NCBI GenBank assembly: GCA_012727555.1
Contig: JAAYGT010000033.1
Location: 21,921-85,920 of the forward strand
DNA: 64,000 nucleotides
Reading direction: 5' to 3'
Origin: Alcaligenaceae bacterium
GTDB taxonomy: Bacteria > Pseudomonadota > Gammaproteobacteria > Burkholderiales > Burkholderiaceae_B
Shown here: one piece after another, positions 24,100 to 26,637 of the stretch
How positions within the stretch are numbered: the first letter of the stretch is position 1
How the letters are laid out: every line of letters starts with the position of its first letter
The notes under the pieces: model-generated
What the model saw: the letters and a program-made list of their open reading frames with translations, nothing else
What the model was told of the DNA's origin: nothing
The model's database searches: none
Translations under genes and position numbers: made by a program

Positions 24100-25098
24100 A
24101 TGAAAGTATGTATCTACGGCCTGGGTGCGATCGGCGGCTTGCTGGCCGCGCGGCTGGCCGCACGCGGCGAAGTACAGACCAGTGCGGTGGCACGCGGAGC
24201 AACACTGCACACGCTGCAGCAACAGGGCCTGACCCTCATTGAAGGCCCGCCTGAGCAGTCAAAAGAGCAGCGCCATCGCCTGCACGCCAGCGACAACCCG
24301 ACCGACCTGGGTGTTCAGGATGTCGTCATTCTTTCGGTCAAAGCCACCGCTTTACCCGACGTGGCGAAGCACATCGCCCCCCTGCTGGGGCCCGACACCA
24401 CCTTGCTGTCCATGATGAACGGGGTTCCCTGGTGGTTCTTCCATGGTTTGCCCAACGCCCCCGAACAGATCCAGCTGACCAGTCTGGATCCTGACGGCAG
24501 GCTTGTGGCGGCACTGCCCTGCGACCGCGTGGTGGGTACCGTCACCCACCTGTCGGCGGCCAACCTGGGGCCCGGTATGGTGCGCCATGTAGCCGGTAAC
24601 CGCATCATCATCGGTGAACCTGGCGGCGGCACGGCCACCCCGCGGGCCCAGGCCATCCTGCAGGCACTGCAATCCGCCGGCTTCGACGTTGAACCCTCGG
24701 AACAAATCCAGAAAGACATCTGGTACAAACTGTGGGGCAACATGACTGTCAACCCGATTTCCGGACTGACCGGTGCAACAGGCGACAGAATTCTGGATGA
24801 TGCCTACGTGCGCCAGTTCATGAGCCGCTGCATGCACGAAGCTGCCGAAATCGGCCGTCGTATCGGCATAACGATTGACCAGGATCCGGAAGATCGTCAC
24901 CAGGTCACCCGTCAGCTGGGCGCATTTCGCACCTCCATGCTTCAGGACGTGCAGGCCGGCAAGGCCATCGAACTGGACGCCCTGGTGGGCGCTGTACTGG
25001 ACATTGCCCGCCAGGTACACGTTGCCGCACCGAATATTGAAACCCTCATGGGCCTGAGCCGGCTGCACGCCCGCACCCTGGGACTTTACCCGGCCTGA
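24100..25098 (+). CDS. Ketopantoate reductase (PanE/ApbA) family 2-oxoacid reductase
   Basis: 332 aa. N-terminal MKVCIYGLGAIGGLLAARLA Rossmann motif and KPR-family layout. Confidence 0.8.
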   Translation: MKVCIYGLGAIGGLLAARLAARGEVQTSAVARGATLHTLQQQGLTLIEGPPEQSKEQRHRLHASDNPTDLGVQDVVILSVKATALPDVAKHIAPLLGPDTTLLSMMNGVPWWFFHGLPNAPEQIQLTSLDPDGRLVAALPCDRVVGTVTHLSAANLGPGMVRHVAGNRIIIGEPGGGTATPRAQAILQALQSAGFDVEPSEQIQKDIWYKLWGNMTVNPISGLTGATGDRILDDAYVRQFMSRCMHEAAEIGRRIGITIDQDPEDRHQVTRQLGAFRTSMLQDVQAGKAIELDALVGAVLDIARQVHVAAPNIETLMGLSRLHARTLGLYPA

Positions 25099-25126
25099 GC
25101 AACGGTACAAGGAAAACGACAGCGTT

Positions 25127-25196
25127 AAGTGAACGCTGTCAGGTAAACGCTGTGAAGTGAAAGCTGTTAAGTGAACGCTGTCAGGTGAACGCTGTC
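25127..25196. repeat. Tandem repeat, 5 x 14 bp (consensus ARGTGAACGCTGTC)
   Basis: Read directly: aagtgaacgctgtc / aggtaaacgctgtg / aagtgaaagctgtt / aagtgaacgctgtc / aggtgaacgctgtc. A degenerate sixth unit follows. Upstream gacagcgtt (25118-25126) is the inverted complement of aacgctgtc. Confidence 0.9.
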
Positions 25197-25274
25197 AACG
25201 CAGCTCGTTCAAACCTTACCTGCCAACACAGACCTGGGGCTCTTGGAAGCAAGCATTACCCTGAGGTTCTGACA

Positions 25275-25470
25275 GGGAGCGGGGCCGCGCCGGGTGCTTG
25301 AGCACGCCGTTGTTTCTGCCCTGACCGGGGAAACAAGGGTCCAGCTGTCTGAGCGCGATGCTTGTCGATCCACCGGATCGACCGCGCGAGTTCTGGACCC
25401 GCCCCGGTCAGGGCAGAAACAACGGGAAGCCCGCAGGGCCGTGCGATGCACCTGGTGCGGCCCTGCACCC
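25275..25470. repeat. Long imperfect palindrome (rod-like hairpin) with a perfect 22-bp core stem
   Basis: GTTGTTTCTGCCCTGACCGGGG (25309-25330) is the exact reverse complement of 25402-25423. Further pairings: 25337-25344/25393-25400 (GGGTCCAG/CTGGACCC), apical 25366-25371/25375-25380, and an imperfect outer stem 25275-25297/25448-25470. Confidence 0.85.
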
Positions 25471-25534
25471 TGACAGAACCGGCAAAGCATACCCACACCC
25501 TTTGCAAGAAGCCACCCCTTTGCAAGAAAACGCA

Positions 25535-25584
25535 TCAAAGAAGCAAAGAACCGGCCGATGCAGTAAAAATCGCATCGGCCGGTT
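25535..25584 (-). terminator. Intrinsic terminator downstream of mhpE
   Basis: Perfect 13-bp stem AACCGGCCGATGC (25549-25561) / GCATCGGCCGGTT (25572-25584). On the minus strand a T-rich tract follows (CTTTGCTTCTTTG). It lies 25 nt after the mhpE stop. Confidence 0.65.
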
Positions 25585-25608: not shown

Positions 25609-26637
25609 TCAGCCTTGCTGCTTGGCACGCACCAGCGAAAGAGCGGTGTCTTCGATCATGTCTTCCTGGCCACCGACCATCCCGCGACGGCCCATTTCAA
25701 CCAAAATTTCACGGGCAGGAATGCCGAACTTCTGTTCAGCCCGTTTCGCAAACAACAGGAACGAACCATACACACCGGCGTAGCCCAATGTCAGGGCATC
25801 GCGGTCAACACGGATCGGGAAATCCATGATGGGTACGACCAGATCTTCGGCGACGTCCTGGATCTTGAAAACATCCACCCCGGTCTCAATGCCCATCAGG
25901 TCGAGCACGGCAACCAGCACTTCCATGGGCGTATTACCGGCACCGGCACCCAGACCGGCAGCAGCCGCATCGATACGGTCGGCACCGACTTCAATAGCGG
26001 CAATACTGTTGGCCACACCCATGGCCAGGTTGTGGTGGCCGTGGAAACCCAGTTCTGTTTCGGGCTTGAGGGCATCGCGCACAGCCTGCAGACGCTCTTT
26101 CACTGTACCAGGCAGCAAGTGGCCGGCGGAATCCGTGATGTAGATACAGTTCGCACCGTAGCTTTCCATCAGGCGTGCCTGCTTGACCAGACCTTCGGGG
26201 CTGTTCATGTGGCTCATCATCAGAAAACCGACCGTATCCATACCCAGTTTGCGACCCAGGGTAATGTGCTGTTCCGACACATCGGCTTCAGTACAGTGGG
26301 TGGCCACACGAATGGTGGTCACGCCCAGATCGTGGGCCATTTTCAGGTGATCCACAGTGCCAATGCCGGGCAACAACAAGGCCGAGACCTTGGCCTGCTT
26401 CAACTGGGGAATCACGGCGCTCAGGTATTCTTCGTCGCTGTGCGCAGGAAAGCCGTAGTTCACGGACGCACCGCCCAGACCATCACCGTGAGTGACTTCG
26501 ATCAGGGGAATGCCGGCCTCATCGAGCCCGCGGGCGATGGAAACCATCTGGTCCAGCGTGATCTGGTGACGCTTGGGGTGCATGCCATCGCGCAGGCTCA
26601 TGTCATGCAGAACGATTTTCTTGGTAGTTGCAGTCAT
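25609..26637 (-). CDS. mhpE: 4-hydroxy-2-oxovalerate aldolase
   Basis: 342 aa. [19 protein letters not shown] and [13 protein letters not shown] match DmpG/MhpE-type aldolases. AAGGAGA RBS. Confidence 0.9.

What the first reader, a model, noticed from the sequence alone, without database searches (positions are those of the whole stretch)
25275..25470. About 200-nt rod-like imperfect palindrome with a perfect 22-bp core stem in a 510-bp non-coding gap
Positions 25309-25330 (GTTGTTTCTGCCCTGACCGGGG) are the exact reverse complement of 25402-25423. Pairing continues inward (GGGTCCAG/CTGGACCC; apical CGATCC-acc-GGATCG centred at 25373). It also continues outward (25275-25297 with 25448-25470, with a 16-nt insertion on the right arm). 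The whole segment can fold into one long interrupted hairpin on either strand. It is far larger than a terminator, and a separate clean terminator sits at 25549-25584. The only ORFs over it are Arg/Pro-rich frames that mirror the palindrome. Possibilities are a MITE/REP-like mobile palindrome (22-bp arms acting as terminal inverted repeats), a structured non-coding RNA, or a recombination or insertion scar marking the edge of the inserted module.
Basis: seen in the sequence. Interest (0 to 1): 0.62.

Follow-up and report, generated by a model that had tools for sequence, protein, structure and literature searches.

The report
Widespread structured palindromic intergenic repeat family
The 200-base palindrome is one of about 80 copies in this genome of an apparently undescribed, highly structured non-coding repeat that occurs in about half of the sampled genera of its bacterial family (named carriers are Alcaligenaceae) and, in shorter form, in other Burkholderiales; its stems vary freely but stay paired on one particular strand.

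Summary
In detail: perfect 24-nt arms, 33-nt outer arms, RNA fold -166.5 kcal/mol (z = -14.9). It is not single-copy. An HMM finds 89 loci in this 3.37-Mb wastewater MAG. None lies inside a gene; only one clips a called ORF, by 39 nt. Copies favour gene 3' ends and often form head-to-head pairs.

Copies share invariant junction and loop blocks and a three-way junction, while the stems differ almost completely yet stay complementary (65 of 80 pairs co-vary). BLAST sees nothing in relatives. A covariance model finds full-length copies in 55 of 121 family genomes (27 of 51 genera; named carriers include Alcaligenes, Castellaniella and Pusillimonas). Ten other families of the order carry the ~120-nt inner core.

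Pairing is strand-specific: G·U to A·C is 317:72, and the sense strand folds 10-12 kcal/mol better. Orthologous copies are kept and co-vary in place. Rfam 15 has no match, Bordetella's BRE is unrelated, and RAYT and TnpB are not associated.

Best reading: a new ERIC/REP-like structured repeat family, amplified in the past and now kept by selection on a single-stranded fold. How it spreads and what it does remain unknown. The 22-bp arms are a variable internal stem, not terminal inverted repeats.

The parts
25265..25480 (+). Complete structured element (the covariance model matches 25268-25479 at 223.7 bits); + is the 'sense' strand, the one that tolerates G·U pairs
25265..25297 (+). P1 outer stem, 5' arm. 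The termini GGTTCTG... are conserved only within this genome's subfamily; the rest varies between copies but stays paired
25448..25480 (+). P1 outer stem, 3' arm
25298..25306 (+). Conserved junction block TTGA (unpaired, nearly invariant) plus GCACG, which pairs with CGTGC at 25440-25444 and co-varies
25307..25330 (+). The sequence is hypervariable between copies but always complementary to 25402-25425
25331..25401 (+). Apex module: P3 (GGGTCCAG / CTGGACCC), the invariant internal-loop blocks CTGTCTGAG (25345-25353) and CGAGTT (25387-25392), P4, and the apical hairpin TCGATCC-acc-GGATCGA (25365-25381)
25402..25425 (+). P2 long stem, 3' arm
25426..25447 (+). Three-way-junction side: GAA, the side hairpin GCCC-gca-GGGC (25429-25439), CGTGC, and the invariant GAT. 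This block breaks the palindrome's symmetry and defines the element's orientation
25481..25546 (+). 3' tail: A/C-rich, G/T-poor degenerate repeats of the end of the outer stem (CCCTTTGCAAGAA x2, AAGAA motifs). Only 25481-25510 is shared with other copies
25549..25584 (-). Intrinsic terminator of the minus-strand DmpG/MhpE-type aldolase gene; unique sequence, not part of the repeat family
25110..25212 (+). Array of 14-nt tandem repeats built on the small hairpin at 25118-25140; unique sequence, not part of the family
24100..25098 (+). Upstream ketopantoate-reductase-like gene, co-oriented with the element's sense strand. Low-depth metatranscriptome contigs run from its 3' end into the element
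25609..26637 (-). Convergent DmpG/MhpE-type aldolase gene on the tail side

Best explanation
The palindrome is an intact copy of a large, apparently undescribed family of interspersed, non-coding, highly structured repeats. It is closest in kind to ERIC and REP/BIME elements.

Architecture. The unit is a ~215-nt rod with a three-way junction:
- an outer stem, P1;
- a conserved UUGA/GAU internal loop;
- a long stem, P2;
- an apex module with the invariant blocks CUGUYUGAG and CGAGUU;
- a side hairpin on the 3' arm;
- an A/C-rich 3' tail made of stuttered copies of the stem end.

Shown here:
- There are about 80-90 copies in this genome.
- The copies are intergenic, favour gene 3' ends and often form head-to-head pairs.
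- The family is spread across the host's bacterial family, and its inner core across the order.
- The stems vary freely while pairing is kept on one defined strand.
- Orthologous copies are retained and co-vary in place.
- The region is transcribed in at least some carriers.

Inferred:
- The family amplified in the past through an unidentified mechanism. It leaves no target-site duplication and involves neither RAYT nor TnpB, so a single-stranded intermediate is likely.
- Resident copies are now kept because the single-stranded fold matters. The fold is most probably RNA made by read-through from neighbouring genes.
- It would act as a very stable 3'-end or intergenic hairpin that stops or insulates transcription and protects upstream mRNA. 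The C-rich, G-poor tail could serve as a Rho or Hfq entry site.
- In the window it would sit in the 3' UTR of the ketopantoate-reductase-like gene, just before the convergent aldolase gene.
For: Copy number and genomic context:
- BLAST gives 44 and then 80 matching places, and an HMM gives 89 loci, about 35 of them at contig ends.
- Word depth over the element is about 40-100 times that of the flanks in four independent metagenomes.
- No copy lies inside a gene (1 of 54 overlaps a called ORF, by 39 nt). The context counts are 14 convergent, 13 tandem and 1 divergent, against a genome background of 329, 1369 and 368.
- There are 13 head-to-head pairs in this genome, 14 of 16 adjacent pairs in named genomes, and pairs in 7 of 11 loci from other families.

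Conserved structure:
- In this genome 65 of 80 pairs show double changes. 94.4% of cells are paired, against 70% when shuffled and 35-47% when slid.
- Across genera 75 of 80 pairs show double changes, with 93% paired against 57% shuffled.

Strand specificity:
- G·U to A·C is 112:43 in this genome and 317:72 across genera, with 94 of 104 elements showing G·U > A·C.
- The sense strand folds 10-12 kcal/mol better in 39 of 40 and 100 of 104 copies.

Distribution:
- The covariance model finds full-length hits in 55 of 121 genomes and 27 of 51 genera of the family.
- Named carriers are Alcaligenaceae.
- The inner core occurs in 10 other families of the order and in 3 of 300 genomes elsewhere in the class.

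Retention in place:
- Both elements of an orthologous pair are 86-98% identical between two species, while the spacer and tails are 20-35% identical.
- At the nrdA-nrdB site of Thiobacillus and relatives, stems co-vary among about 10 orthologues.

Past insertion: the congener has two convergent genes overlapping at their stop codons where this genome has 490 nt of repeat mosaic.

Transcription:
- RNA-derived contigs run from the upstream gene into the window copy.
- At an Alcaligenes copy, RNA-type runs contain a 207-nt hairpin-skipping form that DNA runs of isolates lack.

Tail: it is A/C-rich and G/T-poor in 18 of 18 copies in this genome and 68 of 85 in named genomes.
Against: - No strand-resolved RNA data were available, so RNA versus single-stranded DNA is undecided.
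- The sense strand has no fixed relation to the direction of neighbouring genes. In Thiobacillus it lies antisense inside an operon spacer. That is awkward for a simple cis-acting mRNA role of the sense fold.
- The window copy has no promoter of its own, and the spacer in pairs is not conserved.
- No mobilising enzyme was identified and no target-site duplication was seen.
- Strains in other metagenomes show no presence/absence polymorphism at the two loci tested. Current mobility is therefore not shown.
- The Rho, Hfq and insulator roles are conjecture based on composition only.
Confidence: 0.6

Rival explanations
1. It is a non-autonomous transposable element that moves as single-stranded DNA, in the manner of IS200/IS605 elements or REPINs. 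The conserved loops would be recognition sites for an unidentified HUH-type or other structure-specific enzyme. The strand-specific pairing would reflect the active strand, with no host function.
For: - There are no terminal inverted repeats or target-site duplication of the DDE kind.
- Pairing is strand-specific.
- Orientation is independent of neighbouring genes.
- Copy number ranges from 0 in the congener to about 80 here.
- A recently expanded subfamily is 85-91% identical, and internal-deletion derivatives exist.
- Head-to-head doublets occur, as in REPINs.
- An insertion lies between genes that abut in the congener.
Against: - Y1/RAYT transposase is absent from this genome and unassociated across 121 genomes: 9 of 55 positive against 14 of 66 negative. 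TnpB is likewise unassociated.
- No recurrent neighbouring gene was found in about 130 loci.
- Orthologous copies are conserved better than their surroundings and co-vary in place. A purely selfish relic would not do this.
- No insertion polymorphism was seen among strains.
Confidence: 0.22
2. Each copy is an independently transcribed small-RNA gene. The family would then be a multi-copy structured non-coding RNA with its own promoter, a conserved protein-binding core and an A/C-rich 3' tail.
For: - Covariation is as strong as in curated RNA families.
- There is a strong G·U excess on one strand.
- The internal loops are invariant (UUGA/GAU and UGAG/CGAGUU, possible tandem G·A motifs).
- Head-to-head pairs would suit divergent transcription.
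- The tail is enriched in AAnAAnA motifs.
Against: - There is no sigma-70-like promoter upstream of the window copy.
- Left flanks are not shared between copies.
- The spacer in pairs is only 20-35% identical between two species.
- No terminator follows the tail on the sense strand in the window.
- Copy number ranges from 0 to about 80 within one genus.
Confidence: 0.12
3. The complementarity is kept by a DNA process with no selection on any fold. In this view one arm is recopied from the other by template switching at quasi-palindromes, and the element is only a self-perpetuating palindrome.
For: - The core arms of the window copy are perfect over 24 bp.
- Stem sequences turn over quickly while staying paired.
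Against: - Arm recopying would remove G·T mismatches equally on both strands. Instead G·U-type pairs outnumber A·C-type pairs about 4 to 1 on one strand.
- The asymmetric side hairpin on the 3' arm and the asymmetric UUGA/GAU loop are conserved across an order. Recopying would erase or mirror them.
- Unpaired blocks are more conserved than stems: 84% against 72% majority frequency.
Confidence: 0.04
4. It is a single local duplication-inversion artefact, or a scar at the edge of an inserted gene module.
For: The element lies at the junction between two differently oriented gene blocks.
Against: - There are about 80-90 copies in the genome and homologues in dozens of genera.
- The element is present at this locus in all strains sampled.
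Confidence: 0.01

Closest known systems
ERIC / IRU elements of Enterobacteriaceae (127-bp imperfect palindromes)
   Same: Both are family-wide intergenic imperfect palindromes. Both occur in either orientation relative to genes, are transcribed with their neighbours, have widely varying copy numbers, and have no known transposase. ERIC copies are also retained at orthologous sites, and larger variants are made by internal additions (own knowledge of Hulton 1991, Sharples and Lloyd 1990, and Wilson and Sharp 2006; the first two are cited in PMC3110155).
   Different: There is no sequence similarity. This element is about twice as long and has a three-way junction and a 3' tail. Its stems are hypervariable with only short invariant loops, so BLAST cannot find relatives while a covariance model can. 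ERIC is conserved in sequence.
REP / BIME / REPIN elements with RAYT transposases (PMC3116915, PMC2817692, PMC8266576)
   Same: Both are extragenic palindromes with high copy number that sit at gene 3' ends and form head-to-head doublets. Both show compensatory changes in their hairpins and mosaic arrangements with other repeat modules.
   Different: REPs are 20-40 nt and REPINs about 100 nt; this unit is about 215 nt with multi-branch structure. RAYT is absent from this genome and not co-distributed with the element. No conserved GTAG or CGTC tag was seen at the hairpin foot.
Correia elements (Neisseria) and other bacterial MITEs
   Same: Both are non-coding, about 100-250 bp, multi-copy and intergenic, and both fold into hairpins in transcripts (review PMC3184786).
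   Different: MITEs have conserved terminal inverted repeats and target-site duplications (TA for Correia) and derive from a DDE-type insertion sequence. Here the termini vary between genera, no duplication is seen, and no parent insertion sequence was found.
BRE, the Betaproteobacterial repeat element of Bordetella (Hot et al. 2011, PMC3110155)
   Same: Both occur in the same bacterial family, are GC-rich and intergenic, and are transcribed (BRE as bprJ1/J2).
   Different: BRE has an unrelated sequence (TTTTTTGGCCGCGGGCCGCCCAAGGCAAAAAAGCCCCC...). It is about 90 bp long and arranged in tandem arrays. None of the invariant blocks of the present family occurs in the published BRE list.
Integron attC sites
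   Same: In both, structure is conserved while sequence is not. Both are active on one strand and lie just after genes.
   Different: attC sites are 55-140 nt, carry RYYYAAC...GTTRRRY boxes and sit in one-directional cassette arrays next to an integrase gene. Here the termini read GTTCTG...CAGAAC (the opposite arrangement), and copies are dispersed over more than 80 loci and often lie head to head.

Membership tests
REPIN / REP-RAYT system | A RAYT (Y1 transposase, PF01797) gene is present in the genome and co-distributed with the repeats | tested here: not met
   There is no PF01797 match in this genome. Across 121 family genomes, RAYT occurs in 9 of 55 element-positive and 14 of 66 element-negative genomes.
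REPIN / REP-RAYT system | Short (20-40 nt) palindromic units that form inverted doublets of about 100 nt | tested here: not met
   The unit is about 215 nt with a three-way junction. Doublets do exist, but with spacers of 90-700 nt.
MITE (derivative of a DDE transposon) | Conserved terminal inverted repeats that match a parent insertion sequence | tested here: not met
   The termini are conserved only within this genome's subfamily and differ between genera. Terminal-motif sites outside the family are short deletion derivatives, not insertion sequences.
MITE (derivative of a DDE transposon) | Target-site duplication flanking each copy | tested here: not met
   Aligned flanks of 40-50 copies show no direct repeat at the boundaries. 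The only empty-site comparison is too diverged to place exact junctions.
ERIC-like interspersed structured repeat (as a kind, not sequence homology) | Multi-copy imperfect palindrome, intergenic, found in either orientation, conserved across a bacterial family, and retained at orthologous sites | tested here: met
ERIC (sequence family) | Similarity to the 127-bp ERIC consensus | not tested
   No ERIC sequence was at hand. The hosts are in different orders, and Rfam gave no related hit.
Any Rfam 15 RNA family | A covariance-model match at or near the gathering score | tested here: not met
   The best hit for the window copy is a microRNA model at 26 bits against a gathering score of 98. Nothing overlaps the short forms or the nrd-linked copy.
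BRE (Hot et al. 2011) | Sequence match to the published BRE copies | tested here: not met
   CGAGTT and TGAGCG are absent from the supplementary BRE list, and the listed sequences are unrelated.
IS200/IS605-derived element or TnpB omega RNA | Association with tnpA or tnpB genes | tested here: not met
   TnpB (PF07282) occurs in 10 of 55 element-positive and 17 of 66 element-negative genomes. For Y1 transposase see above.
Intrinsic terminator | A short GC-rich hairpin directly followed by a U tract on the transcribed strand | tested here: not met
   The element is 215 nt long and is followed by an A/C-rich tail. The scan places the only clean terminator at 25584-25549 on the minus strand.
Structured non-coding RNA gene | Covariation that supports a conserved secondary structure | tested here: met
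   65-75 of 80 pairs show double changes, far above the shuffled and slid controls.
Structured non-coding RNA gene | Own promoter and a defined transcript | tested here: inconclusive
   No sigma-70-like promoter was found, and upstream flanks are not conserved. Only unstranded RNA contigs were available.

The most novel reading that the evidence does not exclude
The element is a new class of functional, strand-specific structured nucleic acid of Burkholderiales. It would be either a multi-copy regulatory or insulator RNA with a dedicated, still unknown protein partner that reads the invariant UUGA/GAU and CUGUYUGAG/CGAGUU loops, or the cis-acting part of a new kind of single-strand transposition system unrelated to RAYT and TnpB. 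Its head-to-head doublet would be the working unit.
Probability: 0.25. Interest if true: 0.85.

Novelty: new member of a known kind. Interest (0 to 1): 0.62.

Why it matters
- Annotation. Dozens of copies per genome, in many Alcaligenaceae and other Burkholderiales, are at present unannotated and invisible to BLAST. They fragment short-read assemblies: about 35 of the 211 contig ends in this MAG fall inside copies. They also enlarge intergenic regions, for example from 0 to 490 nt at one convergent gene pair.
- Evolution. The family combines traits usually seen apart. It shows mobile-element-like copy-number swings, and it also shows RNA-gene-like covariation, strand specificity and retention in place. 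This makes it a good case for asking how selfish repeats become host-maintained structures.
- Practical use. The covariance model built here can be used to mask the family, annotate it and study it.
- If a partner exists. A dedicated protein partner, or a new single-strand mobilisation mechanism, would be of wider interest.

Tried and rejected
- Rfam scans of the window copy, of the short forms and of the nrd-linked copy found nothing relevant.
- An exact-pattern scan with a 3'-junction motif found nothing because the motif was too strict. A second pattern built on apex blocks worked.
- BLAST in 40 relatives found essentially nothing. That was misleading, because the covariance model later found the family widely.
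- The BRE of Bordetella looked like a match by taxon and size but is unrelated in sequence.
- RAYT and TnpB were tested as partners and are not associated.
- Clustering ORFs next to about 130 elements found no recurrent mobilisation gene. It showed only the generic ABC ATPase superfamily and the nrdA/nrdB neighbours in Thiobacillus.
- A search for empty sites among related strains at two loci found none.
- The 207-nt 'skip' at an Alcaligenes copy first looked like an empty site. It retains 21 nt of one stem arm, has no flanking repeat and is absent from DNA runs of isolates, so I read it as cDNA synthesis jumping the hairpin.
- The orthologue of the window's flanking gene is not conserved in relatives, so the window locus itself could not be compared.
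- The idea that the inner unit inserted into pre-existing terminator hairpins was dropped. The congener's orthologous site has no hairpin, and P2, which lies between conserved blocks, is as variable as P1.
- A second orthologous pair (L044 and L045) was too similar to be informative.
- One preprint on mining structured non-coding elements could not be opened.
- Orientation relative to replication could not be tested, because whole relatives' genomes cannot be fetched.

Full report
**1.

The window has perfect inverted arms of 24 nt (25307-25330 / 25402-25425) and outer arms of 33 nt at 85% complementarity (25265-25297 / 25448-25480). As RNA the + strand folds to -166.5 kcal/mol (z = -14.9 against dinucleotide shuffles) and the - strand to -155.4 kcal/mol (z = -14.1).

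The fold is not a plain rod. The '16-nt insertion on the right arm' is a small hairpin (GCCC-gca-GGGC, 25429-25439) that creates a three-way junction.

The element lies between convergent genes. A ketopantoate-reductase-like gene ends at 25098, and a DmpG/MhpE-type aldolase gene on the minus strand ends at 25609. The clean terminator at 25549-25584 belongs to the minus-strand gene.

**2. It is one copy of a large family in this genome**

The host assembly is a 3.37-Mb, 57.5% GC MAG in 211 contigs. Near-identical DNA occurs in wastewater and digester metagenomes.

- BLAST with the 226-nt segment gives 44 matches, and a more sensitive run gives 80 places. Three rounds of nhmmer give 89 loci, about 35 of them at contig ends.
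- In four independent metagenomes the contigs of this organism break inside the element, and word depth there is roughly 40-100 times that of the flanks.
- In the window the repeated unit spans about 25262-25510. The upstream 14-nt tandem array and the downstream terminator are unique sequence.

**3. Genomic habits**

I used a simple codon-statistics gene caller (2770 genes, 86% coding).

- No copy lies within a gene. Only 1 of 54 internal copies overlaps a called ORF, by 39 nt.
- Context counts are 14 convergent, 13 tandem and 1 divergent, against a genome background of 329, 1369 and 368. The elements therefore avoid promoter regions and sit at gene 3' ends.
- Orientation relative to the neighbours is neutral.
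- Thirteen pairs lie head to head, with left ends facing and tails outward, 90-700 nt apart. No pair has the opposite arrangement.
- Shorter derivatives exist: the outer hairpin plus tail alone, or copies that lack the apex.
- Left flanks of some copies carry further shared modules, so intergenic regions here are mosaics of repeats.

**4. Architecture and covariation**

I aligned 40 near-full copies.

- Invariant or nearly invariant blocks are TGCTTGA-GCACGCCG, CAAGGG..CAG-CTGTYTGAGCGCG, CGAGTTCTGG..CCGCCCCG and GGGAAGCCC-gca-GGGCCGTGCGATGCA.
- RNAalifold predicts 80 pairs, 65 of them with changes on both sides.
- 94.4% of cells pair, against 70.2% after shuffling partners and 35-47% when partners are slid by 1-3 columns. 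The covariation score is 0.628 against 0.175.
- Unpaired columns are more conserved than paired ones (84% against 72% majority frequency).

**5. The structure is kept on one particular strand**

A G·U pair on one strand reads as A·C on the other. The excess of one type over the other therefore shows which strand is under selection to pair.

- In the orientation with the tail on the 3' side, G·U outnumbers A·C by 112:43 in this genome (p = 3e-8).
- In 104 elements from other genera the ratio is 317:72 (p about 1e-37), and 94 of the 104 have G·U > A·C.
- That strand also folds 10.3, 12.2 and 7.0 kcal/mol more stably than its complement in 39 of 40, 100 of 104 and 22 of 24 copies of three data sets.
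- Orientation was set by the asymmetric sequence blocks. The two strands differ by 60-90 bits under the model, so the choice of strand did not depend on the pairs themselves.

This argues against mere maintenance of a duplex palindrome. In particular it argues against arm-to-arm recopying, which would also erase the conserved asymmetric side hairpin.

**6. Distribution**

BLAST found nothing convincing in 40 relatives, and an exact junction pattern found nothing in the representative-genome collection. A covariance model built from the 40 copies changed the picture.

- Full-length matches of 120-180 bits occur in 55 of 121 genomes and 27 of 51 genera of the same GTDB family. The one congener has none.
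- Printed alignments show the same invariant blocks with entirely different, compensated stems.
- A pattern scan built on apex blocks names the carriers: Castellaniella, Alcaligenes, Pusillimonas, Parapusillimonas, Paralcaligenes, Pigmentiphaga, Pollutimonas, Mesopusillimonas, Allopusillimonas, several unnamed Alcaligenaceae, and Thiobacillus.
- Across the named loci 75 of 80 pairs co-vary, with 93% paired against 57% shuffled.
- At order level, 19 further genomes in ten other families carry only the inner unit (model positions about 35-176; 115-146 nt).
- In those families the core is followed by a conserved U-rich run, a co-varying AT-rich hairpin (GTTACTTTCTTTTG / CAAAAGAAAGTAAC) and a small GC hairpin. 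The Alcaligenaceae tails look like reiterated, degenerate right arms of that hairpin.
- Three of 300 genomes elsewhere in the class also carry the core.
- Head-to-head pairs recur everywhere: 14 of 16 adjacent pairs in named loci and 7 of 11 loci from other families.

**7. Retention and selection in place**

- Two species of one genus share the same head-to-head pair at the same locus. The elements are 86-98% identical, the coding flanks 75-90%, and the spacer and tails only 20-35% with indels. The few differences inside the elements cluster in mid-stem positions and are matched on the other arm.
- In Thiobacillus and relatives one copy sits in the nrdA-nrdB spacer in about 10 species, antisense to the operon. 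Its apical stem reads GGACAC/GTGTCC, AGGCGC/GCGCCT, AGCCGC/GCGGCT or GAACAC/GTGTTC in different species, while the junction blocks do not change.

So structure is maintained at fixed chromosomal sites. It is not merely inherited from a mobile master copy.

**8. Evidence for past spread, and none for present spread**

For past spread:
- Copy number runs from 0 in the congener to about 80 here.
- A subfamily in this genome is 85-91% identical.
- At one convergent gene pair the congener has overlapping stop codons. This genome has 490 nt of repeat mosaic there, including an element, and both C-termini have been rewritten.

Against present spread:
- Strains from other metagenomes carry the element at both loci tested.
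- No target-site duplication is visible.
- RAYT and TnpB are not co-distributed with the element: 9 of 55 against 14 of 66, and 10 of 55 against 17 of 66.
- No mobilisation-type gene recurs next to about 130 elements.

**9. Transcription**

- Low-depth metatranscriptome contigs run from the 3' end of the upstream gene into the left half of the window copy.
- At an Alcaligenes locus, RNA-type runs cover the adjacent gene and the element, and coverage stops about 30 nt beyond it.
- Two of those runs contain, besides the full form, a form lacking 207 nt. It spans the first base of the 5' arm to the middle of the 3' arm and has no flanking repeat. DNA runs of isolates show only the full form.
- I read this as reverse transcriptase jumping a very stable hairpin. 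That implies the region is transcribed and folds.
- All these data are unstranded contigs, so the transcribed strand is unknown.
- The window copy has no sigma-70-like promoter.

**10. Comparison with known elements**

- Rfam 15 has no match for the long form, the short form or the nrd-linked copy.
- The BRE repeat of Bordetella (PMC3110155) is unrelated in sequence.
- Full-text searches found no description of this family.
- In kind it is closest to ERIC elements and to REP/BIME/REPIN elements (PMC3116915, PMC2817692, PMC3184786).
- It fails the defining tests for REPIN-RAYT, DDE-type MITEs, attC sites, IS200/IS605 derivatives and intrinsic terminators (see the membership table).

**11. Verdict**

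Shown:
- a real, very stable, three-way-junction palindrome;
- one of about 80-90 copies;
- a member of a family spread through the host's bacterial family, with its core found across the order;
- strand-specific conservation of structure;
- retention and compensatory evolution in place;
- transcription through at least some copies.

Inferred:
- past amplification by an unknown route that leaves no target-site duplication and probably uses a single strand;
- present maintenance because the single-stranded fold matters, most probably as an RNA hairpin at gene ends, with the C-rich, G-poor tail as a possible Rho or Hfq entry site.

Still unexplained:
- the head-to-head doublets;
- the stuttered tails;
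- which process exposes the sense strand, given that its orientation ignores neighbouring genes.

I rate it a new member of a known kind (interspersed structured palindromic repeats), with a real chance of something more unusual.

Noticed in passing
window 25110-25212: The 14-nt tandem array after the ketopantoate-reductase-like gene is the reiterated loop plus 3' arm of a small hairpin (GACAGCGTT-aagtg-AACGCTGTC, 25118-25140). It is unique in the genome. It shows the same habit of stuttering the 3' arm as the element tails. On the minus strand the hairpin is followed by a T-rich run.
   Followed up: partly
window 25475-25483 and 25547-25555; 25498-25510 and 25516-25528: The direct repeat AGAACCGGC brackets the tail, and its second copy forms the 5' arm of the minus-strand terminator. 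CCCTTTGCAAGAA occurs twice, 18 nt apart, within the tail.
   Followed up: no
L002:1370-1430 (own genome C104:2963-3023) and the left flank of the C115 copy: A second repeated hairpin module (TTATCCGGATCGCC...GGCGATCCGGATAA) accompanies some copies. Intergenic regions of this genome are therefore mosaics of several repeat modules.
   Followed up: no
L183:2450-2460 (congener G001) compared with L002:1268-1757: In the congener two convergent genes overlap at their stop codons. In this genome they are 490 nt apart, and both C-termini differ (…GRLLAA* against …GGYLS*; …SLAR* against …SLARN*).
   Followed up: yes
L136:5130-5274 and the equivalent sites in L063, L108, L118, L140, L143, L145, L155, L158: Thiobacillus and relatives keep one copy of the core in the nrdA-nrdB spacer, antisense to the operon. 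On its sense strand it is followed by a T-rich run and an AT-rich hairpin.
   Followed up: partly
L139:3914-4120 (Alcaligenes phenolicus): Two RNA-type runs contain a contig that lacks exactly 207 nt of the element, alongside the full form. DNA runs of isolates have only the full form. The likely cause is reverse transcriptase skipping a stable hairpin.
   Followed up: yes
L139:4224-4300: A short segment next to the Alcaligenes copy is 5-7 times deeper than its flanks in DNA runs and extremely deep in RNA runs. It is probably a multi-copy tRNA-like or other abundant RNA gene.
   Followed up: no
own genome C76:178-387, C158:1517-1690, C163:4811-5011, C196:3462-3638: There are four TnpB zinc-ribbon fragments. 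Two lie on short contigs that also carry an element, but across genomes TnpB does not track the element.
   Followed up: partly
L044 compared with L045, beyond position 1750: Two closely related species (about 95% identity) lose synteny immediately beside the left end of the element.
   Followed up: no
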